A DNA stretch of 64,000 nucleotides from Heptranchias perlo (Eukaryota), in assembly GCF_035084215.1 (NCBI RefSeq), contig NW_027139559.1, positions 2,418,001 through 2,482,000 on the forward strand, written 5' to 3'. A program made the position numbers and the translations under genes. Every line of letters starts with the position of its first letter. The stretch's first letter is position 1. Below the pieces are notes generated by a model. It saw only the letters and a list, made by a program, of their open reading frames with translations. It searched no databases and had not been told where the DNA came from. Below, one piece after another: positions 40,076 to 62,440 of this stretch.

Positions 40076-40108
40076 ATGCAAATAAGCTCACGCTCTCGCG
40101 ATTTAAAA
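40076..40108 (+). promoter_or_regulatory. IgNAR V promoter: octamer plus TATA-like box
   Basis: Perfect ATGCAAAT at 40076-40083 (IgH orientation) and ATTTAAAA at 40101-40108, ~95-125 bp upstream of the leader ATG. Confidence 0.75.
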
Positions 40109-40202
40109 GGACGGTGCTCAGATACACACGGTTACACAGCACAGTCGGTGTTGAGGTCTGTAGTTGACCCTGTTTAAAGTATTCACTGCTGGTGAAGAAA
40201 CA

Positions 40203-40245
40203 ATGAATATTTTCTGGGTTTCGGTCCTTTTAGCCTGGTTACCGA
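40203..40245 (+). CDS. IgNAR: IgNAR leader exon (MNIFWVSVLLAWLP)
   Basis: Typical IgNAR signal peptide; phase-1 donor A|GTAAG at 40246. Confidence 0.95.
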
Positions 40246-40386
40246 GTAAGTGCAGTATTTTTAAAGAGATTAAATGTTCATTGGATAAAACTGAGCGGCT
40301 GCGTCTAAATTGTGGAAATGTCCTTGATTTTAACTCTTGTATTGTTTCAGAGACGTGATGTATTAAATATATTTTTCTTCATTCAG

Positions 40387-40658
40387 ATGCCTTCGGTATA
40401 AGAGTGGACCAAACACCAAGAACTGCCACAAAAGAGGCAGGCGAATCCCTGAACATCAACTGCGTCTTAACTGATACTAACTGTGGGTTGCACAGCACAT
40501 GATGGTTCCGGCAATATCCGGGTACAAAAGATTGGGTTCGCATATCCATTGGCGGACGATTTGTCGAATCAGTCAACAAGGGAGCAAAGTCTTTTTCTCT
40601 GCGAATCAACGATCTGACAGCTGAAGACAGCGCCACTTATTACTGCAAAGCTGAGATC
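40387..40658 (+). pseudogene. IgNAR: IgNAR V (VNAR) exon, type-II-like (CDR1 Cys), with one in-frame stop
   Basis: After acceptor TTCAG it reads (N)[89 protein letters not shown]. Canonical Cys at 40461 and 40644, extra Cys at 40482, no CDR2 strands, TGA at 40500-40502. Confidence 0.95.
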
Positions 40659-40696
40659 CACAGCAATGAGTCTGAGCTTTCACCAATACAAAAACA
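40659..40696 (+). other. V 3' RSS (23-class, 22-bp spacer)
   Basis: CACAGCA, 22 bp, ACAAAAACA. Confidence 0.9.
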
Positions 40697-40893
40697 CCTT
40701 CTAACCTCCCGTGGAAGAAAATACGGATCGTTCCGCTTTTTTCACCGAACCTTTCACTGCGCAGCCGCTGATTCCTGTCTGAGACTGGGGGAGGTTTGTA
40801 AATAACTGGTGACAATGTCCGCAGCAGAGAACCCGGCACGGAACAGTTGGATATGCAGCGCGGCTGTTCTCCTTACAGTTACGCAGGTGAACC

Positions 40894-40972
40894 TTTTTTT
40901 GCACTGGGTTGTACCACTGTGTAGTATGGGAGCCACAGCAATCGAGGAGACGGTTCCTGTAATGCACAAACT
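40894..40972 (+). other. IgNAR D1 (TAGTATGGGAGC, 40922-40933) with 12-RSS and 23-RSS
   Basis: TTTTTTTGC-12-CACTGTG | D | CACAGCA-23-GCACAAACT. Confidence 0.9.
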
Positions 40973-41160
40973 ATCAGCATACTTTGTTACGGGAACAAGA
41001 GCATTATTTATCTGTTGCTTAATTAGGAAGCGTAGATACTCAATATTTTAGATGGACAACGCTCCTGGTTATAAAAATCGCTGACATGAAGTATTGTGGC
41101 AGGGATGTGGTTTGCAGTATGGGTCTTGACCTGAGGCTCTTGCATTAATTCACATGGCAC

Positions 41161-41239
41161 CTTTTTTGCACTGGTCTCTATGACTGTGTGACTTGGTGTA
41201 CCACAGCAATGAATCTTGGATTCCCGTCACACATAAACT
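41161..41239 (+). other. IgNAR D2 (TGACTTGGTGTAC, 41189-41201) with 12-RSS and 22-RSS
   Basis: CTTTTTTGC-12-GACTGTG | D | CACAGCA-22-ACATAAACT. Confidence 0.9.
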
Positions 41240-41554
41240 GTACCCAAACCTCTTAATACAAAATTAATACAGGTTATTCTCCAGATGGCTGAAAACTTCA
41301 CGGTCAAATACTCACTGTCTCTGTCAGACACTGGCCGATATATTAAAACCTTCTGTCCATTAATTTAGGTAATTGTTGTAGAAATGTTTTAATCATACTC
41401 ATAATGGAACATTGATATTTTTCCAGGATTGGTATTAAGTGACTGAGGATTCTATATGTCTACTGGGATCCCAATGTAAAGGCAATGATTTGAATTACTT
41501 TCAATCAATATCTTGGACTATCTGAAGGGATTTCTGTGATGTTTTTAACAATGG

Positions 41555-41622
41555 ATTTCTTGTGCTGATCTGAAACGATGTGTTGCTGGAGTGACACAGA
41601 GACTCGGGCCACGGCACAAACC
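41555..41622 (+). other. IgNAR D3 (TTGCTGGAGTGA, 41583-41594) with 12-RSS on both sides
   Basis: ATTTCTTGT-12-CGATGTG | D | CACAGAG-12-GCACAAACC. Confidence 0.85.
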
Positions 41623-41935
41623 TCTCCAACAGTTATTTGTTTTACAACTCGTGAAGGTGGCTGCATAATGTGCTTTCTACCTTATGGTTGTTACTGCTAT
41701 GAGTTTGAAATCAATTCCAATTCGACCTTTGGTTATAATCGAGCTGAATTCCATGACATTAAATCAATGTCTTGTCTTTTTCAGTGCTACAGGAGTTCGC
41801 ATTGCACATAGTAAATATCTGGATGGACAAAAACTGACGGAAAATGAAGATGGATTAATGGCTGCAGTGGATGGGAAAGGTCCTTGGAGCCGTGTTGTTT
41901 TGGTGTATTTATTACCGCACCAAAGTTTCAATGAC

Positions 41936-42025
41936 CCTTTTTGAACGAGGCTGACTGGGAGCTGAATGACTGTGGCTATTACTATTACTATGATGGAGCT
42001 GGCACCGTGCTGACTATCAACTCTG
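41936..42025 (+). CDS. IgNAR: IgNAR J segment (41975-42025; YYYYYDGAGTVLTINS) with 5' 23-RSS
   Basis: CCTTTTTGA-23-GACTGTG followed by the IgNAR-type DGAGTVLT motif; donor G|GTAAG at 42026. Confidence 0.95.
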
Positions 42026-42764
42026 GTAAGTGACATCTCTTGCTACTTTATCACTAAGATTTTTTCATAGAAGATATGTAGAATTAGCATTCTCGTTAAA
42101 TTTCTCTTAAGCGCACAGGGCAATAGCCGAAGCTGTTTTTGGAGGTTCGCTTAGGTTCGCTGTCAGTTTATTTGGTTTAAACTTAAAATTATTTTTCAAA
42201 AGAGATTTTGCTCGAGAATGAAACGAGCCTATGTTTAAATACATAACGAACCTCAAAACGAACATATATTTAAATAAATAACAAACCTATATTTAAATAT
42301 ATAATAAACCTATGTTTAAATATATAACGAACCTGTAAACAAGCCTGTATTTAAATATATAACTTACCAACTATGGATCATTTAAGATGCTGATTTGAAT
42401 AGTTATGAATCTCACCGGTGTGATAGTTTAAATAGTTAAAACGCAACCAGCCTAGTGCCGTTACTCTCCTTACTGAGGCGGCCCAGCATATTCATGATAT
42501 ACAGTATTTCTCATTCAAAGAATTTATACAATTCTGGGGCGAGGACAGTTTGCTGCAAACAAGGAATTAATTCAACGTGTGATTAATAAAATACTGAGAA
42601 CGAATTCCTTTCCCCCTCTAAAATCAGCCCTTATTCAATAAAAAAACTGATAAATTAATTCCGGTACCGAACCTTTAAATATATTGTCTATTCGTATCTT
42701 GACATCTGTGACTCTCGTTTAATGCGCATGTGTCACAGTGACCTGGAAAGAAAAGGAAATGATT

Positions 42765-43048
42765 GGGGGTGAAATTGATCTGATCGAGCAGCGCGGAACG
42801 GGCGATAGCAAATCGGCCGCCGGTATACACTGCGTCAGATTTACCTTGACATTGACTTGGAGAATATTGCGAATATTCCGAAGATCAAACCAAGTAAAAC
42901 GGACAGTGAAACTACCCGAATCTCCAAAAAGAGCTCGAACTATCGTTCTGTGAAATTGAGTGGAAAGAAGGTCGAGCGCGGTGTAAAACAGGCCGGCGAT
43001 TCGCTCGGAGCCCATGTCGCGTTTCTGGCGGAGACCAATTTCACCCCC
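42765..43048. mobile_element. MITE-like element with ~17-bp terminal inverted repeats (possibly PIF/Harbinger-type)
   Basis: GGGGGTGAAATTGATCT at the left end and AGACCAATTTCACCCCC at the right end; AT-rich flanks; no clean TSD. Confidence 0.55.
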
Positions 43049-43729
43049 TATACTGTAGGTCTGTGGGAGGCCTGTTTCCATGGAAGCCAGTCTCCTGGAC
43101 ACTCGTATTTCAGACAACAGAAACGCTCTGTGTTTAAGATTGTGCCGAGTAGCAGAGAACATTGAAACTGCGGTAGGTTTGAGTGTGATAATTGAAATTC
43201 TCTTTTAATATCCATGTATAGAAATAAAGTAAACGGTCACTTCATTATTTTATGCCTCGGGGAGAATCGTGAAGTCTTTGACTCACTGTTTATACATTTT
43301 ACTGTCAGTTTACTTATTTTAATTCAAGAAACAATGTGTTTGTTTGGAACCTGAGTGTTGGTCTGATAGACTGGATATTCAGTCAGCATTTCGAAGAGAG
43401 GAGAATCCCAGAGCTGATGTGCAGAGTAAGGGGGATGTTTTTGCCATCCCATGGTCTGGATATCGCTTGCCTGGAGATTGTACAGGTTAAGCCTCGGTGC
43501 AGATGATGGGAGGGGCGGGTCCTCATACATGAGTACCAAGCGACACTGAATCCGAGAAAATATTTACCTTAAAGATCCTGAAACGTTAAACTCGATCGAC
43601 ACAATCCCACCAAATATTCCCTGGTCAGGTAGAATATAGGTAGAAAAGAGGAATGAACTTGCGTTTATAAACGCATCTTTATTGCAAAGCGCTTTATTGC
43701 CGATGAATTTATCGAGTTAACCCCCCTCG

Positions 43730-44130
43730 ACACTGTATCATGTAACACTCCCAGTTCAGGAGCAGTGGGGGTCAGATAGAGGGTACAGCTCCCTCCATAC
43801 TGTCCCACAAAACACTCCCAGTGCAAGTACAGCACAGGATAGATAAACAGTAAAGCTCCCTCTACGCTGTTAAAACCAATGGTCCGAGGGCAGGTACCGC
43901 ACAGGTTTAGATACAGAGTAAACCTCCCTCTCCATTGACCCATAAAACACTCCCACCGCTGGTACAGAGTTAGATACAGAGCAAGGCTCCCGCTACACTG
44001 TCATATCAAACACTTCCATGGCAGTTACAGCACGGGTTAGATACGGAGTTGCGCTCCCTCTACACTCTCCCATTAAATACTCCCAGGGCAGGTACAGCTC
44101 TGGTTAGATAGAGGGTAAAGCTGCTCTACA
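43730..44130. repeat. ~65-bp tandem repeat in the J-C intron (~6 units)
   Basis: Unit ACACTCCCAGGGCAGGTACAGCACGGGTTAGATACAGAGTAAAGCTCCCTCTACACTGTCCCATCAA, degenerate. Confidence 0.8.
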
Positions 44131-45539
44131 CTCTATCCGCAGGAGAAGGTAGATTTCCAACCTTACCGGATACCAGAGCAGCTCACCAGAATGACCCCTG
44201 ACATGGAACCTTAGAAAATATCCAGCATAAAGCTCCCAAAATGTGGCAGCCAGTAACATTAGAGAATACTGTTTATGAACGGGAGCAATGAGATGCAGAT
44301 TGTACTAGAAACAGTGGTGAATAGAAGGGTTTCATCGCAGACATAGAACACCGCACTTATCGAAAGGAAAAACCTTCTCAGAAAAGAAGAATGTGCGCGG
44401 GCAGAAACTCCGATTGGTTCCTTTACACAGATCCATGCAAATTGTTCTCCCATGAATTCCCTCCCAAAACAACTGCTACTCCCCAGTTTAAATAATCCTA
44501 AATCTTATACCTTTCTCCACCGAAATCGCAGGACCATCCACTTAATCTGTCCGTTGCACTAAACCAGATGTTAACTGGTTTATTAAAAACGGGCCCTGTA
44601 GTAGGAGAGTGAACTGAGGAAACTCAAACGTTAATCGTGGTGCCCTGAGACGGCCCACAATGATGTTTAAGGTTAATATCCTTCCTTGCCTCCTCTGAGT
44701 GAAAAAAAGGAATAAAGCAATGGTATTAATATCTCTGTCAGTGGTATTCACTCTCCCACTATCATCGGGAGATATTTATATATAATCTGCCAATTTACAC
44801 AAGGATGGCGCATTTAGTACTTGCATTCTGTCGTCGTTGTCCCGATAAATAACTTGTTCACTTCCACCTCGTAGTCTCGTTAAATCATGTTTCATTGTTT
44901 CAAAGATGTGTATCATTGTTTTTCACTTTTGTAAAGCATCTGAAGTTGTCCTTTGAGATTTCTCTCTTTCTCTCTGACTTATTCACTTTTTCAGCAGCTA
45001 TTATTTTCAAGGCTCTTATCGGAATCCAGCCCAACCCTGCCTATCATAGAATCATAGAATGATACAGCACAAAAGGAGGCCATTCGGCCCATCGGGCCTC
45101 TGCCGGATCTTTAAAGCCAGCCAATTCGTCCCACTCCCCTACTCTTTCCACATAGCACTGCAAATGCTTTCACTGCAATTAATGATCAAATTCCCTTATG
45201 AAAGTTATTGTTGAATCTGCTTCAACCACCTGTTCAAGCAGTGAATTCCAGATCATTACAATTAGCTGCTTAAAAAAATCTCCTCATCTCGCCTCCGGTT
45301 GTTTTGCCAATGACCTTAAATCTGTGTCCTCTGGTTACCGATCCGCCTGCCACTGGAAACAGTGTTTCCTTATTTACCCTTTCGAAACCTTTCATGATTT
45401 TCAACACCTCGATTAAATCTCCCCTTAACCTTTTCTGCTTTAAGGAGAACATGGTGTGGAGATGCCGGTGATGGACTGGGGTTGACAATTGCAAACAATT
45501 TTACAACACCAAGTTATAGTCCAACAAATTTATTTTAAA

Positions 45540-45580
45540 TTCCACAAGCTTTCGGAGGCTTCCTCCTTCCTCAGGTGAAT
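45540..45580 (-). ncRNA. Minimal hammerhead ribozyme motif (antisense arm copy)
   Basis: Minus strand TTCAC-CTGAGGA-A-GGAGG-AAG-CCTCC-GAAA-GCTT-GTGGA. Confidence 0.65.
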
Positions 45581-45815
45581 GGTGAATTGTGGCTGCCAAG
45601 ATAGGAAATTGGCTAAGGGACAGAAAGCTGAGAGCTACGGTAAACGGTTGATTTACAGACTGGAGGGATGTTCACAGTGGTGTTCTCCAGGGGTCGGTAT
45701 TAGGAGCACTGCTCTTTTTGATATATATTAATGACCTGGATGGGTATAACAGACATAATTTCAAAATTTGCAGATGACACGAAGCTCGGAAATGTAGTTA
45801 TCAATGGTCCACACC

Positions 45816-45856
45816 ATTCACCTGATGAAGGAGGAAGCCTCCGAAAGCTTGTGGAA
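45816..45856 (+). ncRNA. Minimal type-I hammerhead ribozyme motif (Penelope-type)
   Basis: TTCAC-CTGATGA-A-GGAGG-AAG-CCTCC-GAAA-GCTT-GTGGA: core CUGANGA/GAAA, 5-bp stem II, palindromic AAGCTT stem III, stem I CAC/GTG. Confidence 0.7.
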
Positions 45857-47099
45857 TTTAAAATAAATTTGTTGGACTATAACTTGGTGTTGTAAAATTG
45901 GTTACAATTAAGGAGAACAACCCGAGCTTCTCTCGTTTCTCCAGGTAACTTAAATCCCGCATTCCTGGTACCTGGTAAATCTCCTCTGCACCCTCTCTAA
46001 GGCCTTGATATCCATCTTAAAGTGTGGTTCCCAGAAATCGACACAATACTCCAGCTGTGGCCCAACCAGTGATTTCTGAAGGTTTAGCATAACTTCCTTG
46101 CTTTTGTACTCTGTGCTTCTATTAAAAAAAGCCTGGGATCCCATCTGCTTGTTTGACAACCTTCTTAACTTGGCGTGCTACCTTCGAAGATTTGTGTACA
46201 TATACCTCGAGGTCTCTCTGGTCCTGCACCCCCGTTAACATTGTACCAGTTTGTATATGTTGTCTGTCCTTATTCTTCCGATCAAAATGCATCACTTCCA
46301 ACTCACTGAGCGAAATTTAATTTGCCACGTGTTTGCCCATTTCATCAGTCTGTCTATGTCCTCCTAAAGTCTGTGAATATCCTCCACATTGATTACCCAT
46401 CCAGGTCATTAATATATATCAAAAAGAGCAGTGCTCCTAATACCGACCCCTGGAGAACACCACTGTATACTTCCCTCCAGTCTGAAAATCAACCGTTTAA
46501 CGTAGCTCTCTGCTATCTGTCCCTTAGCCAATTTCCTATCTTGGCAGCTACAATTCCTTTGATGCGATGGGCTTCAATTGTCTTATGCTATGTTCCTTTC
46601 ATACTTAAAGTATATCTATTTGATTGTCTTTCTCACGATAAGACATTCAGAGCGCGAAACCTCTCTGGCCCACAGCACATATTGCGAATTTGGGTAGATG
46701 CTTCAGAATGATTCATCATCTATTCATTTTAGCCATTGGCAAATTTTGAGGAGCACATTCCCGAAAGGCTGGAGCCTGATTTTAATAGATTAGACCCAGC
46801 CTTCTGATCTTCCCTGAAAACAATGTGCTCTGCATCTCACTGTGCTTCTTTCTAACCAACGTGAAACGGCGCTCTCCCAGCGGCTGGTTTTCAGTCCATT
46901 GAAATTTGGATTCAGGGATTTTGGAAATGTTATTCAGGAAGGTGTGGAGAGTATTTCTCGGAAGTTCCTTGGATAAGTATAAATACTAAGAGTAAAGTTA
47001 ACAAGTGGAAACAACTAACCTAAAGATGGGATTAGGTTCGAGATGTGAAAGGAAATCTTCTCCAGCAAGATGAAAGAATCGCAGAGATATGAGACAAGG

Positions 47100-49650
47100 A
47101 TTTAGTCTCGGCTTCTACAGAAAAGTGTGACGGTGAGGTGCAATTAGATTGAATAATTAGAGATAAGTAAGGAGTGCTGAGAAAATTGGCGGAACTCATT
47201 CTATCCTAGAATGTTGAGGACAGACAAAAAGCAAATAGCAGATGCTCGGCCCTCAACCAATCAAACATCCTAGGATGTGGAACTTGTTTCAGAGGACCGA
47301 GGTAATATCTTTATCAAAGAAGAGAGAAAGGTTTACACAGGGTAAACGTGGGGCCGCCGGCTTACTGTCAGTGGTGGACCATCTTCTTTAGTCATATTAC
47401 TGGAGAAAATTAACATTCACTTGCAGAGACATCGTTTCATTAAAGAAAGCTAGCATGGATATGTAAACGGCAAGTTCTCTCAGACAAATTTAGTTCGACA
47501 GTTCTTCGAAGAACTCTACACATTTCCAGGTTCAGTTTTGGGCACTGCACCCAAGGAAGGATAGATTGGCCTTGGAGGGGGTGCAGCGCAGATTCACCAG
47601 AATAATACCGGGGCTAAAAGGGTTAAAATATGAGGCAATATTGCATGGACTAGGCTTGTATTCCCTTGATTAAAGAAGATTAATGGGTGATCGAATTAAT
47701 GTGTTGAATGTGATTAATAGATTTAATAGGGTAGATAGAGAGAAACTATTGTCTTTGTTGGGGGAATGCAGAACAAGAGGCATGACCTTAAAATTAATGC
47801 TAGGCCGTGTCAGGAGGTTGATACGATACCACATAATGGGTTTGTTAATCAAATAAAGTTGTTCATTTTCAATATTCGCAAAGGACTTTGCAGCGGAACC
47901 ACAACATTAAATTATCAAGGAATAAAAAAAAAGGAACAGTAGAGTATTCTACAGAACGATTAATAACGAAAGGACAGGGTTAGGGCCACAAAGGGAAACA
48001 TAAGATAAACTCATAGGTAATGGGCAGCGAAATGGCAGAAATATTGAATATTTATTTTGCCTCATTATTTACCAGGGAGATAAAAAGATAAAACAAAATA
48101 AGACATTTAAAATAGAAAGGGGGAGATAATTGATCAACTAATCAAGCATAGAGAGGATCAAACCCCCGGTCCGTATGGATTTCATCTGCTCATAATAAAA
48201 TAAGTTAGGGAAGAGGTAGCAGACGCACTATTACATGTACATAAAATTCATTAGAAAAGGGAATAGTGCCAGAAGACTGGTGGACGGCTAATGTGAAAAC
48301 TATATTTAAAAAAAGGAGATTAGAACAAGTCCAGGGAATTATAGACCAGTTAGCATAACGTCGGTGATAGGAAAGATAATGAAATCTTTGCTCAAAGATG
48401 TAATAGAAAAACATCTAGGAAACGAAAATATAATGAAGAATAGTCAGAAAGCAAAGACATGCTTGACCAACCTTACTGAATTGTTTGAAGAAGTAACAGG
48501 AAGGTTAGACAAGGGGTAATTTAGTAGATGGAATATGTTTGGATTTTCAAAAGGCATTCGATACTGTAGTGCATTGTAGATTCATCTGATGTCATAACAT
48601 GTGGAGTCAGGGAACAGGTAGCAGAATGGATAGCAAGCTGGCTACAAATTAGAAAACAGAGAGATTGGTTTAAGGGTAGCTGCTCAGAATGGCAGACGTT
48701 GGGAAGTGGCTTTTCACATGGATCAGTGCTCGGGCCACAGTTGCTGACAATTTCTATTAACAATTTGGACCGGGAATCAGGGGGTGTAGTTAATTCGAAG
48801 GAAGAATACGTCAGGTTGCAAGAAGACATTACTAAACTTGCAGAATGGGCGTGTAATTGGCAAATGAATTTCAATATATTTAATTGTGAAGTGGTGCATT
48901 TTGTTTGGGAGAATAAGCAGGACATATACTGCCTGGATAGAAAGAGTTAAAATGGGGTAGACGAGCAACGGGATCTCGGGGTACAGGTATACAAATCAGC
49001 AAAAGAGGCGACGCATGTTTATAAGCCCATAAAAAAGGCAAACCAAGCACTGGGTTCATTTCTAGAGGAATAGAATTGAAAAGGAGTGACGTTTAGTTAA
49101 ACTTTGCTTTTACCACACTTTGAGTACTGTGGACAGTTATGGTCTCCATATTATAAAAATATATAGAGGCATTGAAGAAGGTGTATCAAAAGATTCAGAA
49201 GGATGATTCCAGAACTGAGAGAACATACCTGTCAAGAAAGATTGAACAGGCTGGGGCTGTTTTTTTCTGGAAATTGAAAGGTTCAGGGTGACCTGATTGA
49301 GATCTTTTAGGTAATGAAAGTATTTGAAAGATTAATCGTAGAGAAAATGTTTCCATTTGTGGGGGAGTCCAAAATCAGACATCATAAATATAAGATTATC
49401 ACTAATAAATCCAATGGGTAATTCAGGAGAAACTTCATTCCCCAATGAGTGATAAGAATGTGGAACGCGCTACCACAAGGAGTATTTGAGCTAAATAGCA
49501 CAGATGCATTTGAATGGAAGCGAGATAAATACAGGAGGGAGAAAGGAATAGAAGGATATGCTGATGGGGTGAGATGAAGAAGGGAGGGGGGAGGCTCGTG
49601 TGAAGCATAAATTCAGACATAGACATGTTGGGCTGAATGGCCTGTTTCTC
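47100..49650 (+). mobile_element. Old CR1 ORF2/3'UTR remnants in the J-C intron
   Basis: NYRPVSITS, DFQKAFD, GSVLGPQL, WQMNFNI..CEVVHF and CR1 3'UTR; many stops. Confidence 0.8.
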
Positions 49651-49914
49651 TGCTGTAGTCACAATATTCCTCGATGATTTCAGCAACCTCAGACAGTTTA
49701 GTTGATTGGGCATGTAACACGCCACATGAACACAAAGAAAAGAGGTAACGCTAAATTTTAAAAATCATTGCTTTGGCCAAAGGTGAAGATTGTGTACAGT
49801 TTCGGTGCCTTAATTTACCTAGGATATCAAGGCCACGGAGAGGGTGCAGAAGAGAATCACCGAGATTATGCAAAGGATGAAAGGCTTCAGCTATGAGAAC
49901 AAAATAACAAATAC

Positions 49915-50690: not shown

Positions 50691-50767
50691 TGGAGAGAAA
50701 CGTGGGCTATTTTCTTGAGAACCAGAAAGTGAAGAGGCAGTAAAATTGTAACTGTCTTTGATAAGCC

Positions 50768-51116
50768 AAATGGAGAGAAACTATTTACTGTGGTCGATAA
50801 CTAGCGGGTATGAATTTAAATGGAAATAAACTATTTGCCGTGGGCGGTAACTCGTGGGTATAAGTTTAAATGGAGGGAAACTATTTACCATGATCGATAA
50901 CTAATGGGTATAAGTTTAAATGGAGGGAAACTATTTGCCGTGGTCGATAACTAGTGGATATATGTTTAAATGGAGGGAAACTATTTACCGTGCGTTATAA
51001 CTAGTGGGTATAAGTTTAAAGGGAGAAAAACTATTTACCGTGGTTGAAAACTAGTGGGTATAAGTTTAAATGGAGGGCAACTATTTACCGTGGGCTATAA
51101 CTAGTGGGTATAAGTT
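50768..51116. repeat. 50-bp minisatellite (7 units) derived from CR1 3' ORF2 sequence
   Basis: Unit AAATGGAGGGAAACTATTTACCGTGGTCGATAACTAGTGGGTATAAGTTT, embedded in a decayed CR1 3' end. Confidence 0.85.
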
Positions 51117-52185
51117 TCAGATCATCAGCCAATGATGAATGGAGATATTAGGAGATTTATTTTTATTATGGAGATGGTTGTCAGGACACGGAACCTCCAA
51201 CCATAAACAATGCTGTTTGAAGAATCATGGTATCATAGTAGGTTAAGCACAGGGGAAGACATTCTGCCCACTGTGTCTCTGCTGGGTCTTTGAAAGAGCT
51301 ATCCAATTAGTCCCATTCCTCTGCTCTTCCCCGTCGCCCTGGAAATTAGGTTAAAAGGAAGAAGGCAAATATTGAGAAAGAATGTACCGGGAAAGAAGAG
51401 GAGAATCGGACTGCGCACATCCAGCCCTGATTATCGCTCCCTTAAGGTGAATAGATATCAAATCACAGGCCGGGAATCTACAATTTCCCCATGTACTCTC
51501 CCGCCGTGAGCCATGGGCGGGTCCAGCGGAATTTCCACTGCGAAGCGGTTAGCTCTTCCACAGAGCCCGTAGTGGCGCGATGGGCCGAATGAATCCTTCT
51601 GTGCTGCAAAATATTTTAATTCTATCGCTCCTTCACCTAACATTACCAAAACCATTGCTGTCTCTGACCTCTGATGTTACAAACTCGTTGCTGCAATCGT
51701 CCAGAAATCCAAACAATTCCTTCCTTAAGAAACGCCTATTGCAAAATATTTCCCGGTAAAGTGACGACATGAAACTGCTCCATCCCCAGGAAAATTAAAG
51801 CATGTTACTGGTAACAATAATCGATGTACATTTAAAATCTGACTGTCACTACACACCACTGGACAGTATCGATATTTTTCGTAAAATACATTGATCATTA
51901 TTCACTCCGAAATGAACAAGTGATAAGAACATTATTTGAATGCTCGTTCATGACCGGAACTCATTTATCCCAACACGCTCACTGTAATATCAGCACATTC
52001 AAATCCAGCTTCAGTGCATCCATGTGTTTTTAATTTGGCGGTGTCCGTGGCTGCGAGCAACGTGATACTGACTAGATAATCTGTTTTTAGGTGTTGTTTG
52101 AGGAATAAGTATTGGTCAGGACTCTATATAAACGGTTTAATTGTCATTATGGAAGGGAGTAAGTCTTTCGTTGTAATTTTCTCAG

Positions 52186-52503
52186 TACAACTAACTCCAC
52201 CGATCATCAGTCTCCTCTACTCTGCAAGTGACGAACTGACAGCAAAAGGTTTTGTGCAACTGGTTTGCCTCATCAGCGAATATCAGCCAGAAAGCATTGC
52301 AGTGAGTTGGCAGAAGAACGGAAACGCTGTACAATCGGGCTTTACAACAACATCCCCAGTTAAAAATTCGAATGGTGATTTTAGCTCCACGAGTCTCCTT
52401 AAAGTCACCCTGCAGGAATGGAACAGCGGGTCTCTTTACAGCTGCCAAGTATCCCATTCTGCAACCAACAGTAACCAGCGGAAAGACACTAGAAAAACAT
52501 CAG
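52186..52503 (+). CDS. IgNAR: IgNAR C1 exon
   Basis: CTCAG|...|GTGAG, 318 nt, phase 1: VQLTPPIISLLYSASDELTAKGFVQLVCLISEYQPESIAVSWQKNG...YSCQVSHSATNSNQRKDTRKTS. Confidence 0.95.
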
Positions 52504-53254
52504 GTGAGAAAATGTAACCAATTCACAAGCTTGCACAGCTGAAACATGTTGACTTTCTTTCTCAGTATTGGATTAGTTGGGATGTTATTGTGATAATTTA
52601 TCTGTGCCAGTTTATGGTGCAGTGAGACAGTAAAGTTAGTTGGGGATGTTTCAGCAGCAATGGCTGAGGTTCCTGAAGGTGCTCGCTGCCAGGCGGATGT
52701 TGCAAAAGGCATGACTATGAGATCTTGACAAATACGTGAATATTATTCTATGGTCAGCGTAACACATTGATCAAACTCTTTTATGATATTGCAAGAAATT
52801 TACAAATAATTGTGATACATTCTATTTAATTAATTCACCAGATCAATCCAGGTGAAACAGAAAGGAAACAGAGCAGAAATGTATGTTTTACACACAAGGG
52901 ATCCAACTTTAACAATGCGGTTCTGTTACTTTTTACATTTGTGAGAATTTATTGTGTGTGATACTGGATATCAGTACAAAAATGTGTTTAAAAAAATGAA
53001 ACGGGTGAAAGACGGACGGAGAAAGAAACGAGAAAGGCAGAAAGAGAGAGATAGACAGAGAGGTGGTGCTGTATAAAGATTGAACCTACAGATACGGTCA
53101 CAAAACCCGCAACAATAAGCTGTTCTTCCTTTTAAACAAAAATGTTTAAAAGACACGGGTAAGGGCCGGGGAATACGACTAAGTGGATAGCACATTCAGA
53201 GAGCCAGCAGACACGATGAACCGAATGGCCCTCTGAGCTGTGGAATTCATTCAA

Positions 53255-53850
53255 TCTTTCTCTCTTTCTTTGCCTCCCTCTCTCTCTCTCTCTCTCTGTC
53301 ATGATGTGGAGATGCCGGTGATGGACACGGCTGGACAAATGCAAGGACTTGCACAACACCAGGTTATAGTCCACCAGTTTTATTTTAAATCACAAGCTTT
53401 CGGACCTTACCTCCTTCGTCAGGTGACGAAAATAAAACTGTTGGACTTTCACCTGGTGTTGTGCAAGTCCTTACATCTCTCTCTGTCTGTCTCTCTCTCT
53501 GCCTCTCTATCTCTGTCCCTCTCTCTCTGTGTCTGTATCTGTCTCTCGCTCTGCTCTCTCTCTATATCTGTCTCTCTCAATTTGTCTCTCTCTGTCCCTT
53601 TCTCTCTCTCTGTGTCCCCGTTTCTCCGTCTCTATCTGTCTTTCTCTCTGTCCCTATTCCTCTTTCTATATATACATATATATATATATATCTTTCTCTC
53701 TCACCCTGTTTCTCTCCAACTGTTCGCCTTCTCTATCTTATTCTCTCTATCAGTCCATTTCCCTGCCTCTCTCCCTATCTGTCTGTCACACTCTACCTCT
53801 CTATGTCCCTCTCTCTCTGTCTCTTGTTTTTCTCTCTCCCTCTCTTAGCT
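53255..53850. repeat. Degenerate (CT)n/(CTGT)n microsatellite
   Basis: Directly visible; source of the Ser/Leu-rich spurious ORFs. Confidence 0.9.
53301..53476. mobile_element. Second Penelope-like mini-element with a minus-strand hammerhead (53390-53426) and a short inverted arm
   Basis: Same 5' sequence TGTGGAGATGCCGGTGATGGAC as the 45452 element. Minus strand TCAC-CTGACGA-A-GGA...TCC-GAAA-GCTT-GTGA. 53429-53476 is an inverted copy of 53339-53386 (44/48). Confidence 0.75.
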
Positions 53851-54057
53851 TCGTTGAGTTGTATATAGTTTTGATTCGACTCAACATACGCGCAAACACC
53901 AAATTATTTTTTAAGATTCAATAATAATCAGTAAGAGACATGGTCACATCTTGGCGTATAACGGATTATCAATGAAATTAAAATCCTTGTTAAATTTCCT
54001 AAATCATCAACACTAAATCATCGCCCCGATTCTGAATCTCTCGTTTCTCACTGACAG

Positions 54058-54360
54058 AGCTCGCGGTATTTCTCAGAGATCCTTCCGTTGTAGATGTTTG
54101 GATCAATAAAACTGCCACCCTGGTGTGTGAAGTGGTCTCTACGGTTCCCACTGAGGTTACCATCTCTTGGACAGTGGGTGGAAAGATAAAGAATGAAGGA
54201 GTTCAAACTGAACCAGCTAAAAAGGATGGAAACCAATACCTGACCATCAGCCACTTGACCAGCAGCGTGGAAGAGTGGGATAGCGGGGTTGAATACTCAT
54301 GCTCTGCACAAGAGAATCAATCATCTCCTCCGGTATTAAAACGAACCGGAAAGACAAGAG
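54058..54360 (+). CDS. IgNAR: IgNAR C2 exon
   Basis: GACAG|...|GTGGGT, 303 nt: ELAVFLRDPSVVDVWINKTATLVCEVVST...WDSGVEYSCSAQENQSSPPVLKRTGKTR. Confidence 0.95.
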
Positions 54361-54436
54361 GTGGGTAAAATATCTATAGACATGTTTTCGAATGGCAATG
54401 GATGGAAGACTAACACTTGTTGAACTTCCGTTACAG

Positions 54437-54754
54437 TCGAGCCAGTCAAGCCAAAGCTCCGCCTCCTTCCTCCATCACCAGAGGAGAGTCAAAGTAGGAG
54501 CGCCCCGACTCTCACATGCCTGATAACAGGATTCTACCCTGACAACATAATCGTTTCCTGGGAGAAGGACGGAGCTGCTTTAAGCACGAACGTTACCAGT
54601 TTCCCCAGTGCTCTTGAACAGGACCTAACCTTCAGCACAAGGAGCAACCTCATTTTGCCTTCAGAGGAATGGAAGAAAGGATCAAGATACACCTGTACCG
54701 CCTCACATCCCGCTTCACAATCCGACGTGAAGGCGACCATCCGCAATATGGAAG
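54437..54754 (+). CDS. IgNAR: IgNAR C3 exon
   Basis: After a 76-nt intron, TACAG|...|GTACGG, 318 nt: VEPVKPKLRLLPPSPEE...LTCLITGFYPDNIIVSWEKD...ALEQDLTFSTRS...YTCTASHPASQSDVKATIRNME. Confidence 0.95.
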
Positions 54755-57715
54755 GTACGGACCGTTTTTCAAAATACTTTCACACAATAATGATTTTTAC
54801 TTAAATCTTAGGCCAAACCCGAACCACACACGCACTAGCGATCAGATCCCTCTAGGTTACAGATATAACAACATATATGGCTGTCAATTAATGCGCCATT
54901 AATTCACAGGCAGCAATTAGACGATAAAATGATCAGCACTCTGAATGTGTTCGCCGCCACAAGCTATGTGAGGACCCAATAGTAAGAAGGGGCAGGATAA
55001 GGATCTATTTAACCTCACTGCACGGTACCCTGGTGATTGTGGGCTTTCTTTAAACAACAATATGCAGTATCTGAAGACACTAAATCCACTTTTCACCGGG
55101 CAGAGTGTTCCATACTATGTGGGGAGAAGACTTTGAGTGGCGTTTACTTCACTCTGCACTGCCTTGTTTCGGTTTAGCTGGACACTGAGTGGTTGCCAGC
55201 AGCGAAATTCAAGACAAAAAAAACAGCCATTTCACAGGGCACCCAACCAATTGATGTGAGGAACATTGTACATTTCAAGTGTTCAAATCTTCTGAACCGC
55301 CAGCGCTATACGTTAGAGGAGGAGACAAATAACGTGTTAATTGACTGAACCCAATGATGTGACCTTTTGTTTTGATGAGTGTAAACTCCGCTCGTGTGAT
55401 TAGTTTGTTTCAATTCGAATTGTTTTTGTTCAATCAAATTGACGCATTTGCTCAATAACTGGCCCAGCACCACCGTGCTCTGGGTGGGGAAACTTTTAAA
55501 CTTCTCTAGATCTTTGGTTGGATCCCCGATTACTGCTGAGTTCGTTGATCTCACCTGGTGGCGTTCGGGACCTTATAATCAGACTTAGTGTCCCTAGATT
55601 TGTGAAGTGGCAATAGCGCATTGTTCTGCTCCTGGTCTATGGTAAGTGCGTGTATGGTCACTCTGGGAACAACAAGATAGGTGTTGCCTGCGATGCCCTC
55701 ACTGTACAATGGCCTACTGATACTGCATAGGAGGACTCAGGAAGTATAGACCATTGGATGAGGTATCGGAGGGCAACCTATAGTTCTCATACACCAGTGA
55801 GGAAAAGAGGGGATATAATACCAAACACTGTTATTAGACTCAAACTCAGGCTCCTCCGATTGGTAAGCAGCTGTACACTATAATGGCCCTGTACACTAAG
55901 AAAGTCCTGTGTTTCACCTCCCGATCTTCACTGAGTTAACTGATCTCAACTGGTAGATTTTTGGAAGTTCCGGTGGACTACGCACATCGTGGTAACTGTG
56001 CAGACACCCGTTCTTGTTTCTTCCTCCAATTGGGGGAGACCTCGTTGAAGTCGGGGTGTTTGCACCTCTGCTGACGGCAGGATTGGACGGGGCTCTGCTG
56101 CTTTCACCGTAGAGTAGGCTGTTGATATGCAGTCTTTCTGCTGATTCACGAAGAATGGCCACTTGAGAGATACCCAAGGTGACCTTCCTCAGTGAAGCCT
56201 GTACCGGATTAGCAATAAAACACAGTCATTTATTTCCCACCTTTAAGCGCCTCATACCGTTTCACAGAGTTTTAAGGAAAACATAACCAAGTTAAATAAG
56301 GGGAGATTATGAGGTGTGACCAAAATCTTGTTGGGTTTGGAGGAGGGTCTGAAAGTGGGAGCAGGAGGGGGAGAGGCGGAGAGGATTAGGGAGGAAAGTT
56401 CAGCGCGGGACCTGGGACCTAATCAAGGTTTCACCACCTTCCGTATGTATGAGAATAGTCTTGTCCGTTTTGTTATTTCTAGTCCTATTCCCGTATCATT
56501 AGATTTCCACAGAATGTTCAGCGGCCTGAAGTTCACCCAACACCTACACGGTTTATTTCAGCAAATCAGATGAATGTGAGTCAGAGTAAAAGAACATCGT
56601 TACAACGAAAATCGACGCACTTGTTGCTGCTATAAGAACTTCTGAACGTTTTCACTCAATCTTTGGCTCCCTCAGATATCAAGGTTAAGTCCCTGAATTA
56701 TGCCTTTTGGTTGACGCTCAATTCTGACCACTCCAAAAGCAGTCTTTGACAAATGTGAAAATGTCAGTTGACTTTTCCGTGATTTTTAACATGAAGCAGC
56801 AGCGGATCGACGCTACAATGTTGTGGAGAAGTACAAATAATTATCCTCCTGGAAAGCCGGCACCATTAACCTATGGTGCGAAGGCCATTTTCCAGCGGTT
56901 GCCCAATTTATTATTAGGTCTTTGATAATTCGTGCTCTGCACAGACCCAGAAAGTTGATAATTTAATGATGTCTCTTCTGAAAATCGAAGTGCATTTAGG
57001 TGTCTTCTCAAATAGCCCAGTGGCGGCATAAAACCTAACGCGTACTTCCCAGAACAATAGTTTGTACCAATTTCACTCCACTGTCACGGTGATTGTGAGA
57101 CGATCATTAATAATATCCTGTAAAACGTACCTCAGACTTTTCCTCCAGTTCTGCTGCTCCATAATCTGTTACATGATTCTCACTGTTCGGGTTTGTTTCC
57201 AATTTTCCAATGTGGCATCGTACTGCCCTCAGGTGCAAGCTATGCATTAGCAGACTTTTAAACTACCAGGAGGAGACTGGGATGCTTCCTTACTACGTTC
57301 GTTGGGAATCCAGGAAAATATCCCAATTAGTACATAAAAAATTAAAACTAAACCGAGCATGTTGTAAATCGGAAATTAGAATAGAAAGTGCGAGAAAAAC
57401 AGAGCAGGCCCGTCAGAATCTGTAAAGATCGATGGTGTTGTAAGATCCTGACTGAGAACTCAAACCAACTCTCTGGAACTGTCTGACCTCCTAATCCCCA
57501 CGCTATCCTTTCTGTGTAGAGATGCCTCAGAGCTACTGAGTATTTGCAGCATTTTCTGTTGTTATTAACGATATTATCGCGTCTGGTCTGCTCATCCAAT
57601 GTGAATCAAAGGCTTTGACTTCCTTTGTAGCACACACTTTTTTCTCCCCTTAGTATATTACAGATCCCAGGTCACTCTTCCCCGAAACTAAAGTCGACAA
57701 TTGTCTTCATTTTAG

Positions 57716-58815
57716 AAGATTGGCTTGACGACAGAAGACAGAGGGTGGTTGTAGAGGGTTGTTTTTCAAACTGGATGCCTGTGTCCAGTGGTGTGCCTCG
57801 GGGATCGGTGCTGGGTCCGCTGTTATTTGTTATTTATATTAATGATTTGGATGAGAATTTAGGAGGCATGGTTAGTAAGTTTGCAGATGACACCAAGATT
57901 GGTGGCATTGTGGACAGTGAAGAAGGTTATCTAAGATTGCAACGGGATCTTGATAAATTGGGCCAGTGGGCCGATGAATGGTAGATGGAGTTTAATTTAG
58001 ATAAATGTGAGGTGATGCATTTTGTTAGATCGAATCGGGCCAGGACCTACTCCGTTAATGGTAGGGCGTTGGGGAGAGTTATAGAACAAAGAGATCTAGG
58101 AGTACAGATTCATAGCTCCTTGAAAGTGGAGTCACAGGTGGATAGGGTGGTGAAGAAGGCATTCGGCATGCTTGGTTTCATTGGTCAGAACATTGAATGC
58201 AGGAGTTGGGATGTCTTGTTGAAGTTGTACAGGGCATTGGTGAGGCCACACTTGGAGTACTGTGTACAGTTCTGGTCACCCTATTATAGAAAGGATATTA
58301 TTAAACTAGAAAGAGTGCAGAAAAGATTTACTAGGATGCTACCGGGACTTGATGGTTTGACTTACAGGGAGAGGTTAGACAGACTGGGACTTTTTTCCCT
58401 GGAGAGTAGGAGGTTAAGGGGTGATCTTATAGAAGTCTATAAAATAATGAGGGGCATAGATAAGGTCGATAGTCAAAATCTTTTCCCAAAGGTAGGGGAG
58501 TCTTTCACGAGGGGGCATAGATATAAGGTGAGAGGGGAGAGATACAAAAGGGTCCAGAGGGCCAATTTTTTCACTCAAAGGGTGGTGAGTGTCTGGAACG
58601 AGCTGCCAGAGGCAGTAGTAGAGGCGGGTACAATTTTGTCTTTTAAAAAGCATTTGGACAGTTACATGGGTAAGATGGGTACAGAGAGATATGGGCCAAG
58701 TGGAGGCAATTGGGACGAGCTTAGTGGTATAAACTGGGCGACATGGACATGTTGGGCCGAAGGGCCTGTTTCCAAGTTGTAACTTCTATGATTCTATGAT
58801 TCTATGATTCTATGA
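57716..58815 (+). mobile_element. Relatively young 5'-truncated CR1 LINE in the C3-C4 intron
   Basis: ORFs 57745..57984 and 57985..58782 are in the same frame with one TAG; GVP.GSVLGP, SKFADDTKIG, LEYCVQFWSP; (ATTCTATG)n tail. Confidence 0.92.
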
Positions 58816-59296
58816 AGATCTCATTGCTGCAATCACAGCATTTCCTTCAGGTGAAATTTCTGCTGCTTGTTCCTTCCAAATACCTTTGTGTTGTAACTCA
58901 GTTTACTGCTAGAACTTATGGAGATGATTCCCCTTGTTCCAACCAATCATCTGTTTTCTTCTTTCCCTCCTATCATTTCGTTTTATTGCTAAAGGATGGT
59001 CATTTTTGGAAATGAGGATATTGCACAAACCCCTTCAGATAAGAGTGACCTTGTAACACACACTGTGAAATAAACCCCACTCATTTTATGGAAGGATGAT
59101 AATCTAATGTGTTTAAATCAGAGATCACTGTAGACAAGTATATGGTCATATCTGAGAAGCTGGAAGGAGAGAGAATGGAAGTGATTACAATCAGTCCGGT
59201 AACAGGTTTTATAACACTCCCCTCTGGAGCATTGGCATCATTGAGAGAAACGGAGCAATTTTAGTGTAAGGTTAAAAAACAAAGTTATAATATTGG

Positions 59297-59369
59297 ACAC
59301 CCGCACAGTGGACCAAAGTGACGTGCCCATTGCCAATGGGCCCGTCACTTTGGTCCACTGTGGGGGTGT
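59297..59369. repeat. 73-bp near-perfect palindrome/hairpin containing inward-facing CACAGTG heptamers
   Basis: 36-bp arms matching at 34/36 with a 1-nt spacer; CACAGTG at 59304-59310 and CACTGTG at 59356-59362. Confidence 0.85.
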
Positions 59370-60270
59370 TGGAAAGTTCAGAGTTGACATCCCAGTTGAA
59401 TATAATGAAGGCGGCGTTTATAATTTTCAGAGTAATACATTAAGCTTTAAGCGGGAACGCGGTGGGAGGATTCTTTGAGATTGTATCTCATGCATGAAGT
59501 AACGATCTCGACGGTCAGAGTGACTCTTTCACTTTAAAACTGGGGGCATGTTTTCCCACTTTCTGGCAGTATTTCCGTTCCTGCTCTCAAGGTGTAGATA
59601 TCGAGCAAGTGTGGACAAGGTATATCATCGATAGGTCATGGACTTCCTCACTTTACACTCTTCAAACAATGCGTCTTAATGCTCAACCTTCCAAAAGCGC
59701 TCTTTCCTCGGCCTGAGTGGCAGTTTGTATTTCTCGACACTGTCTACCTTCTCGAAGTGAAAGAGCAAAATCGGTGCCAAATGGTGCAGAACATCTGCAG
59801 ATTGGTGCTGAGGGCACGTTTGCTTTCGCCGTCGATTTGATTGGTCGGACCGAGGCAATCTCATTTCAGACCCAAGCTTTAGAGCTGGAAAAGAGAGGAC
59901 TTTTATATGAGGTTTATTGGAACTCACCACATACAGGCCACAGGGCAGCGTTTGACCTCCAGCATCAGTCAGTCTGATTGGTGAAGGTTTGTATCACCAG
60001 AGCGGGCAACATGAGGTCCACATTTAAAACCAGCCAGTTCTCGAATAGTGGAATGGTCGGATATATTGTGGAGCACATCATCCAAAGAAGCCAGAGGGAA
60101 GAAAGCAACGAGCCCAGATGGGCTCTGTCCTATTAGCTCAGCAGAAATAAGCTGAGAAAACTCATAACAGCCGACAGTAAGTATGATTTGTTTTTTTGAG
60201 TCTATTGCAGTAGTTATTACCCGTGGTTTCAACATGACACTTTGAAATGACCATTCCCTCTACTTTCCAG

Positions 60271-60591
60271 GTGTATGTCATGAGACAGATATTTCTGTCA
60301 CCATACTGAACCCTTCTTTTGAAGAGATTTGGACCAAACGAACAGCGACCATTGTTTGTGAAGTCGTTTATAGCGATTTAGAAAACGTCAGCGTGTCCTG
60401 GCAAGTGGATGGGAGTCGGAGAACGGAAGGAGTGGAGACTCAGGCTCCTGAGTGGAATGGAAGTAAATCCACAATCGTTAGTAAACTGAAAGTCAACACG
60501 ACTGAATGGGGCAGTGGGGTTGAATATTTGTGCTTCGTGGAAGACATTGAATTGCCAACACCAGTGAAAATCTCCACCAGAAAAGTAAAGG
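60271..60591 (+). CDS. IgNAR: IgNAR C4 exon
   Basis: TCCAG|...|GTAAGC, 321 nt: GVCHETDISVTILNPSFEEIWTKRTATIVCEVVYSDLENV...EYLCFVEDIELPTPVKISTRKVK. Retains the extra N-terminal Cys used for the interchain bond. Confidence 0.95.
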
Positions 60592-60669
60592 GTAAGCACA
60601 GATAATATTCGTTCTGAGACTGACCCTACTCCATCAATGGTCGTCAAAGATCATTCATTTTCTACATTA

Positions 60670-61370
60670 AGGATAGTGATAGACTTCAAGATGATATCGA
60701 CAGGCTGGTGGAATGGACGGACACATCGCAGATGAAATTCAACGCAGAAAAGTGTGAATTGATACCTTTAGGAAGGAAGAACGAGAAGAGGCAATATAAA
60801 CTAAAGGGTACATTTCTGAAAGGGGAGCAGGAACAGAAAGACCTGGGGGTATATGTGCCTAAACCGTTGAAGGTGGCAGGGCAGGTTGAGAAAGCGATTA
60901 AGAAAGCTTAGGGGAACCTGGGCTTTATAAATAGAGGCAGAGAGTGCAAAAGCAAGGTGGTTATGATGAATCTTTATAAAACAGTGGTTCGATTGCAACT
61001 GGAGTATTGTGACCAGTTCTGGGCACCGCGCTGTTGGGAGGATGTGAATGCCTTGGGGAGAGTGCAGAAGAGTTTTAATGGAATGGTTCCAGGGATGAAG
61101 GACTTCGGTACGTGGTTAGACTGGAGAAGATGGGGCTGTTTTCCTTAGAACAGAGAAGTTTACAAGAACATTTGATCGAGGTATTCAAAATCATGAAGGG
61201 TCGAAACTGTGTAGACAGAGAGAGACTGCTCCCATTGGATGAAGGGTTAAGAAACAGAGGGCATAATTTTGCAGGGATACGGGAATCGGGCAGGGGAGTG
61301 GGGCGAGCTGGATTGCTCTTGCAGAGAAACGGCACGTACTCGACGGGCCGTAACAATTCTATGATATCAT
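60670..61370 (+). mobile_element. Degenerate CR1 3' fragment in the C4-C5 intron
   Basis: QMKFNAEKCE, LQLEYCDQFWAP, GLFSLEQR..LIEVFKIMKG. Confidence 0.85.
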
Positions 61371-61718
61371 GAAATGCTCTTATAATCAGTGAAACATAGT
61401 CCGGGATCCTGCCATTCACCCCACGGGTAAAGAATAGCGAGAAAAATGTAAGCGGTTTGAAACTGTTGCGTCACAACAGTATCATCGTTATCCAAATATG
61501 GGATTGACCCCAACTCTTAGCAAAATAACATCAGGCCACAATGAAAACTCCCAAAAGAAAGAACATTAAAGAAATCCATGGCCCCGCAGAGAAATGTGTA
61601 AACTCTCTCAGATAACAATTCCAATTGTCCAAAGACGCAAATTACCAGCAGACGGGAATGGGAAGTGAAGGACGGACAAGAGACAGACTCAGTTTAACAA
61701 ATATTGTTCTCTTTCCAG

Positions 61719-62101
61719 TTGACGGAATGTATCCTCCGAAAGTCTACGTCCTGCCTCCATCAGCGGTCGAGATTGACACTGAGAAGACGGCAACCCTGCT
61801 GTGTTTAGCAACCGGCTTTTACCCTGCCGAGATTTACGTCGCGTGGATGGCCAATGACACCCTTTTGGATTCAGGTTACACCACCCAACCGGACACGGAG
61901 AAGAAAAGTGGTTCCAGCTCCATTGTCAGCAGACTGAGAGTCACCGCAGCGGAGTGGAACGGCGGGACCACTTACTCCTGTTTAGTGGGACACCCGTCTC
62001 TCACAATGAATTTACACAGAAGTATAAATAAATCTTACGGTAAACCTACTTTAGTTAATGTTTCACTAGTTCTAACCGACAGTTTTCAATCGTGTACATA
62101 A
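61719..62101 (+). CDS. IgNAR: IgNAR C5 exon plus secretory tailpiece
   Basis: TCCAG| VDGMYPPKVYVLPPS...LLCLATGFYPAEIYVAW...YSCLVGHPSL...SINKSY-GKPTLVNVSLVLTDSFQSCT*. NVS sequon and penultimate Cys. Internal donor G|GTAAAC at 62039/62040 for splicing to TM exons. Confidence 0.95.
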
Positions 62102-62386
62102 CCCCCCGTGGTTCAATAGCTGTTTTCTATAGAAGTGTTAGACCTGTTATGTTCGGGCATCTGAGTCAGCCTCCAGATCAGCTAACGATTGTTTAGATAT
62201 TTCGCAAATCTATGAGACTATATCAGTGAATGAAGGATAATTACGGTTATAATCCGATAATGGTGAATAACCTTAATACCGCTTGATACAAGTTGCAATA
62301 TTTTTGAAGATTCTTTGAAGGGTTCAGTGACGTTATTGGATAAACAGGAAATGATGCTTTAGACTGTATGTGGCTCCGCAAATCGC

Positions 62387-62440
62387 AATAAATGCAGAAT
62401 GAAAACCTCCTGACTTCCCGATTCGTTGTTTGTGTGCGTT
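62387..62440 (+). terminator. Poly(A) signal of secretory IgNAR mRNA
   Basis: AATAAA at 62387-62392 followed by a GT-rich element TCGTTGTTTGTGTGCGTTTT (~62421-62441). Confidence 0.7.

What the first reader, a model, noticed from the sequence alone, without database searches (positions are those of the whole stretch)
40076..62392. Complete germline IgNAR V-D-D-D-J-C1-5 cluster, largely missed by the ORF track
Seen: leader, V, three D, J and five C exons with consistent phase-1 GT-AG junctions, plus a secretory tail and poly(A) site. RSS spacers are 22 / 12-23 / 12-22 / 12-12 / 23. Known: this is the shark cluster organisation of the light-chain-free IgNAR antibody, whose four joins build a long CDR3. 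Inference: the spacers also allow V to skip to D2 or D3, and D3 (12/12) could join by inversion.
Basis: partly seen in the sequence, partly recalled or inferred. Interest (0 to 1): 0.7.

Follow-up and report, generated by a model that had tools for sequence, protein, structure and literature searches.

The report
Shark IgNAR cluster with broken V
This is one full gene cluster for the shark's light-chain-free antibody (IgNAR) in the already known layout, but the assembled sequence has a stop codon inside its antigen-binding exon, so this copy is likely dead while sister copies supply the antibody.

Summary
It is IgNAR, not IgW or NAR-TCR: C region 66-75% identical to IgNARs versus at most 53% to the other hits, clade support 100/100, VNAR-type Cys-Cys spacing of 61. 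Contigs from one shark sample read G there (Gly) and show rearranged, spliced transcripts, apparently from sister clusters. The window copy also differs from those contigs at the TATA box, a D3 heptamer and a conserved FR1 Thr. J-C1...tail stays open (563 aa) with no excess decay. Best reading: a recently inactivated copy or null allele (about 0.72); an assembly error is not excluded (about 0.15), as no raw reads were available. D skipping and D3 inversion are allowed by the spacers but not shown. The layout is published; silent or incomplete IgNAR clusters are known. The scan earlier noted another damaged IgNAR copy 747 kb upstream (e1-9141212). Ordinary.

The parts
40076..40083 (+). Octamer motif ATGCAAAT upstream of the leader (putative promoter element)
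   Evidence: sequence; motif recalled, function untested
40101..40108 (+). TATA-like box, degenerate in this copy (TAAAA; the DNA contig laid here reads TATAA)
40203..40245 (+). Leader coding exon (MNIFWVSVLLAWLP), phase-1 GT donor
   Evidence: joint 40245/40387 GT..AG in 7 contigs of run X5
40387..40658 (+). VNAR exon, type II-like (Cys in CDR1), interrupted by a stop
40500..40502 (+). In-frame TGA directly before the conserved FR2 Trp
   Evidence: contigs laid read G at 40500
40659..40696 (+). V 3' RSS, 22-bp spacer
40894..40972 (+). D1 (40922-40933) with 12-bp 5' RSS and 23-bp 3' RSS
41161..41239 (+). D2 (41189-41201; one frame gives Cys) with 12-bp 5' RSS and 22-bp 3' RSS
41555..41622 (+). 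D3 (41583-41594; one frame gives Cys) with 12/12 RSS; 3' heptamer CACAGAG where all contigs laid read consensus CACAGTG
41936..42025 (+). 23-bp RSS and J segment (41975-42025, YYYYYDGAGTVLTINS), phase-1 donor
52186..52503 (+). C1 exon, open
   Evidence: best single-domain PDB match 4q97 (IgNAR)
54058..54360 (+). C2 exon, open
   Evidence: best PDB match 4q9b (IgNAR)
54437..54754 (+). C3 exon, open
60271..60591 (+). C4 exon, open
   Evidence: only PDB match at E below 1e-25 is 2mkl (IgNAR)
61719..62101 (+). C5 exon with secretory tail (N-glycan sequon and penultimate Cys kept) and stop
62387..62392 (+). AATAAA poly(A) signal, 286 bases after the stop

Best explanation
This is an unrearranged IgNAR heavy-chain cluster whose V exon, as assembled, has an in-frame stop codon, so it is likely a recently inactivated copy or a null allele among several sister clusters. 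In an intact cluster RAG makes four deletional joins (V-D1-D2-D3-J) that build CDR3, and the product is spliced leader-VDJ-C1...C5-tail (established for the family; here seen only for related clusters). This copy could probably still rearrange (inferred: all eight RSS are recognisable), but every product would stop after about 53 codons and give no receptor (follows from the sequence). The hit is probably recent, because the C exons are open and not more diverged than those of functional IgNARs (inferred).
For: Stop read directly. None of 7 aligned VNAR relatives has a stop there (S, T/S, Y or D). At 40500 the one covering DNA contig in each of X1 and X2 reads G, X5 reads G at depth 74339.7 of 74373.6 and X6 at all of 3051.7, giving Gly. 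Three more letters of this copy depart from the conserved state that the laid contigs keep: TATA box 40106, FR1 Thr to Asn at 40453 (Thr in 7 of 7 relatives), D3 3' heptamer 41600 (4 of 4 contigs in X1 and X2). Several related clusters exist in sample S1 (2-4 differing DNA contigs at many places). Silent or incomplete IgNAR clusters are normal: 3 of 7 incomplete in bamboo shark (PMC8692893, passages), 1 of 3 unexpressed in nurse shark (PMC11641339, first quarter of the text).
Against: The T at 40500 was not seen in any listed contig, so the stop rests on the assembly alone; all 7 runs laid were contigs of one sample, which drop variants, and it is not shown that this sample is the window's individual or species (best share of words 0.32). 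A rearranged contig in X9 matches the window V over 40493-40655 with one unlisted difference, so a nearly identical V is expressed. C exons show no excess private changes (24 of 276 conserved columns, against 18 of 270, 18 of 270, 27 of 279 and 47 of 299 in four relatives), which also fits a live gene with one wrong base. The other private letters could be species or paralogue differences.
Confidence: 0.72

Rival explanations
1. The stop is a consensus error of the assembly (or a mis-collapse of near-identical clusters), and the cluster is a normal functional type II IgNAR gene.
For: One substitution is the only frame-breaking lesion in about 2 kb of coding sequence; no listed contig shows the T; an expressed V differs from the window at only 1 of 163 bases over 40493-40655.
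Against: The copy also has non-consensus letters at TATA, FR1 and a D3 heptamer; contigs cannot show absence; a 299-base contig identical to the window at 40960-41258 (depth 4.9 and 5.9) suggests the window's version exists but is mostly dropped from these contigs; depth 33.9 in X5 is not G at 40500 (letter not listed).
Confidence: 0.15
2. The V is dead but the C region is kept in use, either as an acceptor for a VDJ rearranged in another cluster (shark cluster-to-cluster switching) or through leader-to-C1 splicing that gives a V-less secreted chain.
For: J-C1...tail and leader-C1...tail are both open (563 and 561 aa). V regions expressed with another cluster's C, and a V-less IgW form, are described in nurse shark (PMC4279169, passages).
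Against: Open C exons are equally expected soon after a V lesion; in-frame exon skipping is a trivial result of all-phase-1 exons; the J-C1 junction contigs differ from the window's C1 start by one letter, so they come from another copy; the passages read describe switching for IgM and IgW, not IgNAR. No reads were laid on the C exons.
Confidence: 0.07
3. The stop is real but is repaired somatically (hypermutation or gene conversion from a sister V) or read through, so the cluster adds a minor part of the repertoire.
For: Seven of nine single-base changes of TGA give sense codons, including Gly and Ser; non-productive VDJ are transcribed and mutated in shark B cells (PMC2435157, passage); the X9 contig is nearly identical to this V.
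Against: The cell would need another receptor to survive until repair; no transcript is tied to this copy; readthrough or selenocysteine use was not tested and has no support here.
Confidence: 0.04
4. The cluster is IgW, IgM or NAR-TCR rather than IgNAR.
For: The last C domains are homologous to IgW (58-62% over C4-C5), as known for IgNAR.
Against: Tree of C4-C5 puts the window with five IgNAR-type rows at 100/100, apart from eight IgW-type rows; V Cys-Cys spacing 61 against 70-71 in IgW; five C exons; no second V exon in the window; J splices to an Ig C1 in RNA contigs. No protein named plainly as shark IgM was in the tree.
Confidence: 0.01

Closest known systems
IgNAR clusters of white-spotted bamboo shark (PMC8692893) and nurse shark (PMC4622739, PMC11641339)
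   Same: One V, three D, one J, five C exons, secretory tail; 12-, 22- and 23-bp RSS spacers (figure legend); segments 255-381 bp apart; several clusters per genome, some silent or incomplete.
   Different: This copy is fully split and complete in parts but has a nonsense codon in V; the TM exon is not inside the window. The exact 22/23 pattern could not be compared, as the figure is not held.
Heterodontus francisci IgNAR secretory form (P0004) and Triakis scyllium IgNAR (P0007)
   Same: Colinear over leader, V, C1-C5 and tail; 76% and 68% in leader+V, 75% and 71% in C; CDR1 Cys as in type II.
   Different: They are open proteins with Ser at the position of the stop.
Squalus acanthias VNARs 3B4 and 2C02 (PDB 7spo, 7spp)
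   Same: Best solved-structure matches to the V after the stop; 75% and 69% identity.
   Different: Rearranged, selected binders; the window is germline and interrupted.
Shark IgW (P0026, P0029, P0030, P0037)
   Same: Cluster organisation; homologous C-terminal C domains and tail.
   Different: V has CDR2 (Cys-Cys 70-71), V identity 24-30%, C identity 45-50%.

Membership tests
IgNAR heavy-chain cluster | VNAR-type V lacking the CDR2 region (short Cys-Cys spacing) | tested here: met
   Spacing 61 as in P0001, P0004, P0007; 70-71 in four IgW; top PDB matches are VNARs
IgNAR heavy-chain cluster | One V, three D, one J with 12/23-compatible RSS | tested here: met
   Eight RSS, three D cassettes, 0 in 30 shuffles
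IgNAR heavy-chain cluster | Five C1-set exons orthologous to IgNAR C1-C5 and a secretory tail with Cys | tested here: met
   Pfam C1-set in 5 of 5; PDB 4q97, 4q9b, 2mkl; tree 100/100
IgNAR heavy-chain cluster | Transmembrane exon downstream of the secretory tail | tested here: inconclusive
IgNAR heavy-chain cluster | Homodimer without light chain | not testable with these tools
   Follows from family knowledge only
Functional IgNAR gene | Open V reading frame | tested here: not met
   TGA at 40500-40502 in the assembly; not confirmed by independent reads
Functional IgNAR gene | Rearranged, spliced transcripts from this copy | tested here: inconclusive
   Junctions are used in RNA-like contigs, but those carry other letters than the window; the X9 contig has one unplaced difference
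Type II VNAR | Non-canonical Cys in CDR1, partner Cys from CDR3, no type I framework Cys, no CDR1 Trp of type III | tested here: met
   CDR1 reads TNCGLHST; D2 and D3 each give Cys in one frame; definition from PMC4622739 passages
IgW | VH-type V with CDR2, C domains in the IgW clade | tested here: not met
NAR-TCR | NAR VDJ spliced to a supporting TCR-delta V | tested here: not met
   No second V exon in the window; J joins Ig C1 in RNA contigs
IgM | VH with CDR2, two D, four C-mu exons | tested here: not met
   Three D, five C, short V; no named shark IgM protein was compared directly

The most novel reading that the evidence does not exclude
A V-dead IgNAR cluster is kept as a constant-region donor: VDJ exons rearranged in sister clusters switch onto its intact C1-C5, or its leader splices straight to C1 to secrete a V-less IgNAR chain. 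That would extend shark cluster-to-cluster switching to IgNAR and give 'pseudogene' clusters a job.
Probability: 0.07. Interest if true: 0.55.

Novelty: new member of a known kind. Interest (0 to 1): 0.15.

Why it matters
The layout itself is textbook. The practical value is modest: a clean germline map (leader, D cores, J, RSS, exon borders) for VNAR repertoire work in this shark, and a warning that this copy should not be counted as functional. It would matter more only if the C region of the V-dead copy proved to be used by other clusters.

Tried and rejected
No listed run is on record as RNA and none is kept as raw reads; X5, X6, X7 and X9 are guessed RNA. Seven of 9 listed runs were laid (X3 and X8 were not), all one sample; lack of a contig with T at 40500 is no evidence of absence. 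The lay at 99% likeness did not settle the stop: the one listed piece over 40500 ends 7 bases from it and its single difference is unplaced; 217 pieces were not shown. TM-tail tblastn with three tail queries gave nothing better than E 0.1. No other Ig exon lies in the 64 kb. Rescue by a later acceptor inside V was rejected: the in-frame AG sites at 40573 and 40621 lack a pyrimidine tract and would drop the first Cys; no in-frame ATG follows the stop. The exon upstream of J used by the spliced germline transcript is closed in the J frame. D3 inversion: 0 of 12 shown junctions. Searches on the octamer in IgNAR promoters listed 2 papers, neither read. No structure or complex prediction was run, as it could not change the verdict.
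Full report
Observation. The leader coding exon is 40203-40245, V 40387-40658, D1 40922-40933, D2 41189-41201, D3 41583-41594, J 41975-42025, C1 52186-52503, C2 54058-54360, C3 54437-54754, C4 60271-60591, C5 with secretory tail 61719-62101, AATAAA 62387. All junctions are GT-AG and phase 1, and J to tail is one open frame of 563 aa (my first splice had the J end one base off and was corrected). The RSS spacers are 22 / 12-23 / 12-22 / 12-12 / 23. A cassette scan finds these three D segments only, and none in 30 shuffles of the window. Segments lie 255-381 bp apart; J-C1 is 10,160 bp.

Leader+V translates to ...NCGLHST*WFRQ...: TGA at 40500-40502 sits directly before the FR2 Trp. It lies upstream of every recombination joint, so no V(D)J product can avoid it. 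There is no in-frame ATG after it and no credible later acceptor.

Identity. The V half after the stop matches VNAR structures best (7spo E 6.6e-22, 7spp). C1, C2 and C4 match the solved IgNAR domains 4q97, 4q9b and 2mkl (in one search a multi-domain IgA chain ranks first by summed score, 4q97 is the best single stretch). The C region is 66-75% identical to five IgNAR-type proteins and 40-53% to the other 30 hits, which include four named IgW or IgNARC proteins. A C4-C5 tree of 14 rows (13 chosen from the 38 proteins fetched, plus the window) puts it with the IgNARs at 100/100. V Cys-Cys spacing is 61, against 70-71 in IgW. No second V lies in the window, which rules out NAR-TCR. The CDR1 Cys and Cys-coding frames in D2 and D3 make it type II-like (definition in PMC4622739).

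Reads. Nine runs hold part of the V-J region, best share 0.32, none on record as RNA, all kept as contigs. I laid seven, all from one sample S1. Its DNA contigs show several related clusters, mostly 4-10% different from the window, plus one 299-base contig identical to it at low depth. RNA-like contigs use the leader-V joint (7 contigs in X5), many V-J junctions with D cores, and J-C1 (12 loose ends in X5, one letter off the window's C1), so the architecture works in this family. At 40500 the DNA contig in X1 and X2 reads G, as do 74339.7 of 74373.6 depth in X5 and all of X6, giving Gly. The window also departs from the contigs at 40106 (TATAA to TAAAA), 40453 (Thr to Asn; Thr in 7 of 7 relatives) and 41600 (D3 heptamer off consensus). 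Against my reading: no listed contig shows the T; at 99% likeness a rearranged X9 contig matches 162 of 163 bases over 40493-40655 and the odd base is not placed; and it is not shown that S1 is the window's individual or species.

Age of the lesion. At columns invariant in the other four sequences, the window differs at 5 of 45 in V and 24 of 276 in C; four relatives treated alike differ at 18 of 270, 18 of 270, 27 of 279 and 47 of 299 in C. There is no broad decay, so the lesion is recent, polymorphic, or an error.

Mechanism. Shown: the parts, the stop, the open C frame, use of the same junctions by related clusters. Established for the family: four RAG joins within a cluster (PMC4622739, PMC5192425). 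Inferred: this copy can rearrange but yields no receptor, and sister clusters carry the repertoire. I put this at 0.72, an assembly error at 0.15, use of the C region by other clusters or as a V-less chain at 0.07 (precedents for IgM and IgW in PMC4279169), somatic repair at 0.04.

V-to-D2, V-to-D3 and D3 inversion obey the 12/23 rule. Among the 12 junctions shown (of 20; related clusters; read by eye), 9 hold a forward D core of 6 or more bases, the two with two such cores have them in germline order, and none holds a reversed D3 core. One has D1 followed closely by a 5-base D3-like stretch, which fits skipping or trimming equally. A review describes shark clusters as rearranging by deletion (PMC5192425, section 17). 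So the inference is possible but unsupported.

Known or new. One V, three D, one J, five C, Sec and Tm, with 12/22/23 spacers, is described for bamboo shark, where 3 of 7 clusters are incomplete (PMC8692893); nurse shark has unexpressed clusters (PMC11641339, PMC4622739) and IgM pseudogene clusters (PMC2435157). This is a new member of a known kind, probably a dead one. Seen of each paper: PMC11641339 part 1 of 4; PMC5192425 passages and section 17; PMC2435157 passages and section 10; PMC8692893, PMC4622739, PMC4279169, PMC12227049 passages only. No supplements or figures were seen; the bamboo shark figure would show whether the 22/23 pattern is the same. The RSS, octamer and TATA consensus motifs are recalled, not from a call. 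Earlier scan notes hold nothing on this cluster; one describes another damaged IgNAR copy 747 kb upstream, unchecked here.

Verdict: real, correctly named, already understood, and probably non-functional. Interest 0.15.

Noticed in passing
runs X1, X2, X4 laid on window 40652 and 41190; not in the window itself: Three DNA runs of sample S1 each hold a contig (depth 26.5, 27.8, 32.6, like other single-locus contigs) in which the V end is joined through a few bases to D2, with D2's 3' heptamer intact in X4: likely a germline-joined V-(D1)-D2 IgNAR cluster elsewhere in that genome. The passages read describe D1-D2 fusion in nurse shark type III and pre-joined D in bamboo shark, and VD-J joining for shark clusters in general, not V-inclusive joining in IgNAR; not searched exhaustively.
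   Followed up: partly
window 40886/40887 to 41784/41785: RNA-like contigs in X5 and X6 skip D1-D3 through a GT..AG joint, and contigs cover the stretch upstream of J: likely a spliced sterile germline transcript. The window keeps both splice sites; the exon is closed in the J frame.
   Followed up: partly
window 40076-40083: Perfect octamer 127 bases before the ATG, 25 bases before the TATA-like box; from recall, shark IgM promoters are said to lack it. Two papers listed by a search, not read.
   Followed up: partly
window 54361-54436: C2-C3 intron of only 76 bp, against 1.1-10 kb for the other introns.
   Followed up: no
window about 57700-58800, 47500-49650, 60600-61350, 9400-13300, 100-2040: LINE reverse-transcriptase-like remnants (family judged from recalled motifs) fill the J-C1, C3-C4 and C4-C5 introns and the upstream region; the C3-C4 copy has a 265-codon open frame and ends in a short tandem repeat.
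   Followed up: no
window about 6350-8830, 39000-39530, 50760-51120: Tandem repeat arrays of moderately diverged units.
   Followed up: no
window 16730-17233: Open frame ending in C2H2 zinc-finger-like repeats, possibly a fragment of a zinc-finger gene.
   Followed up: no
window 1-40000: No other immunoglobulin exon in 40 kb upstream, in line with widely spaced clusters.
   Followed up: yes
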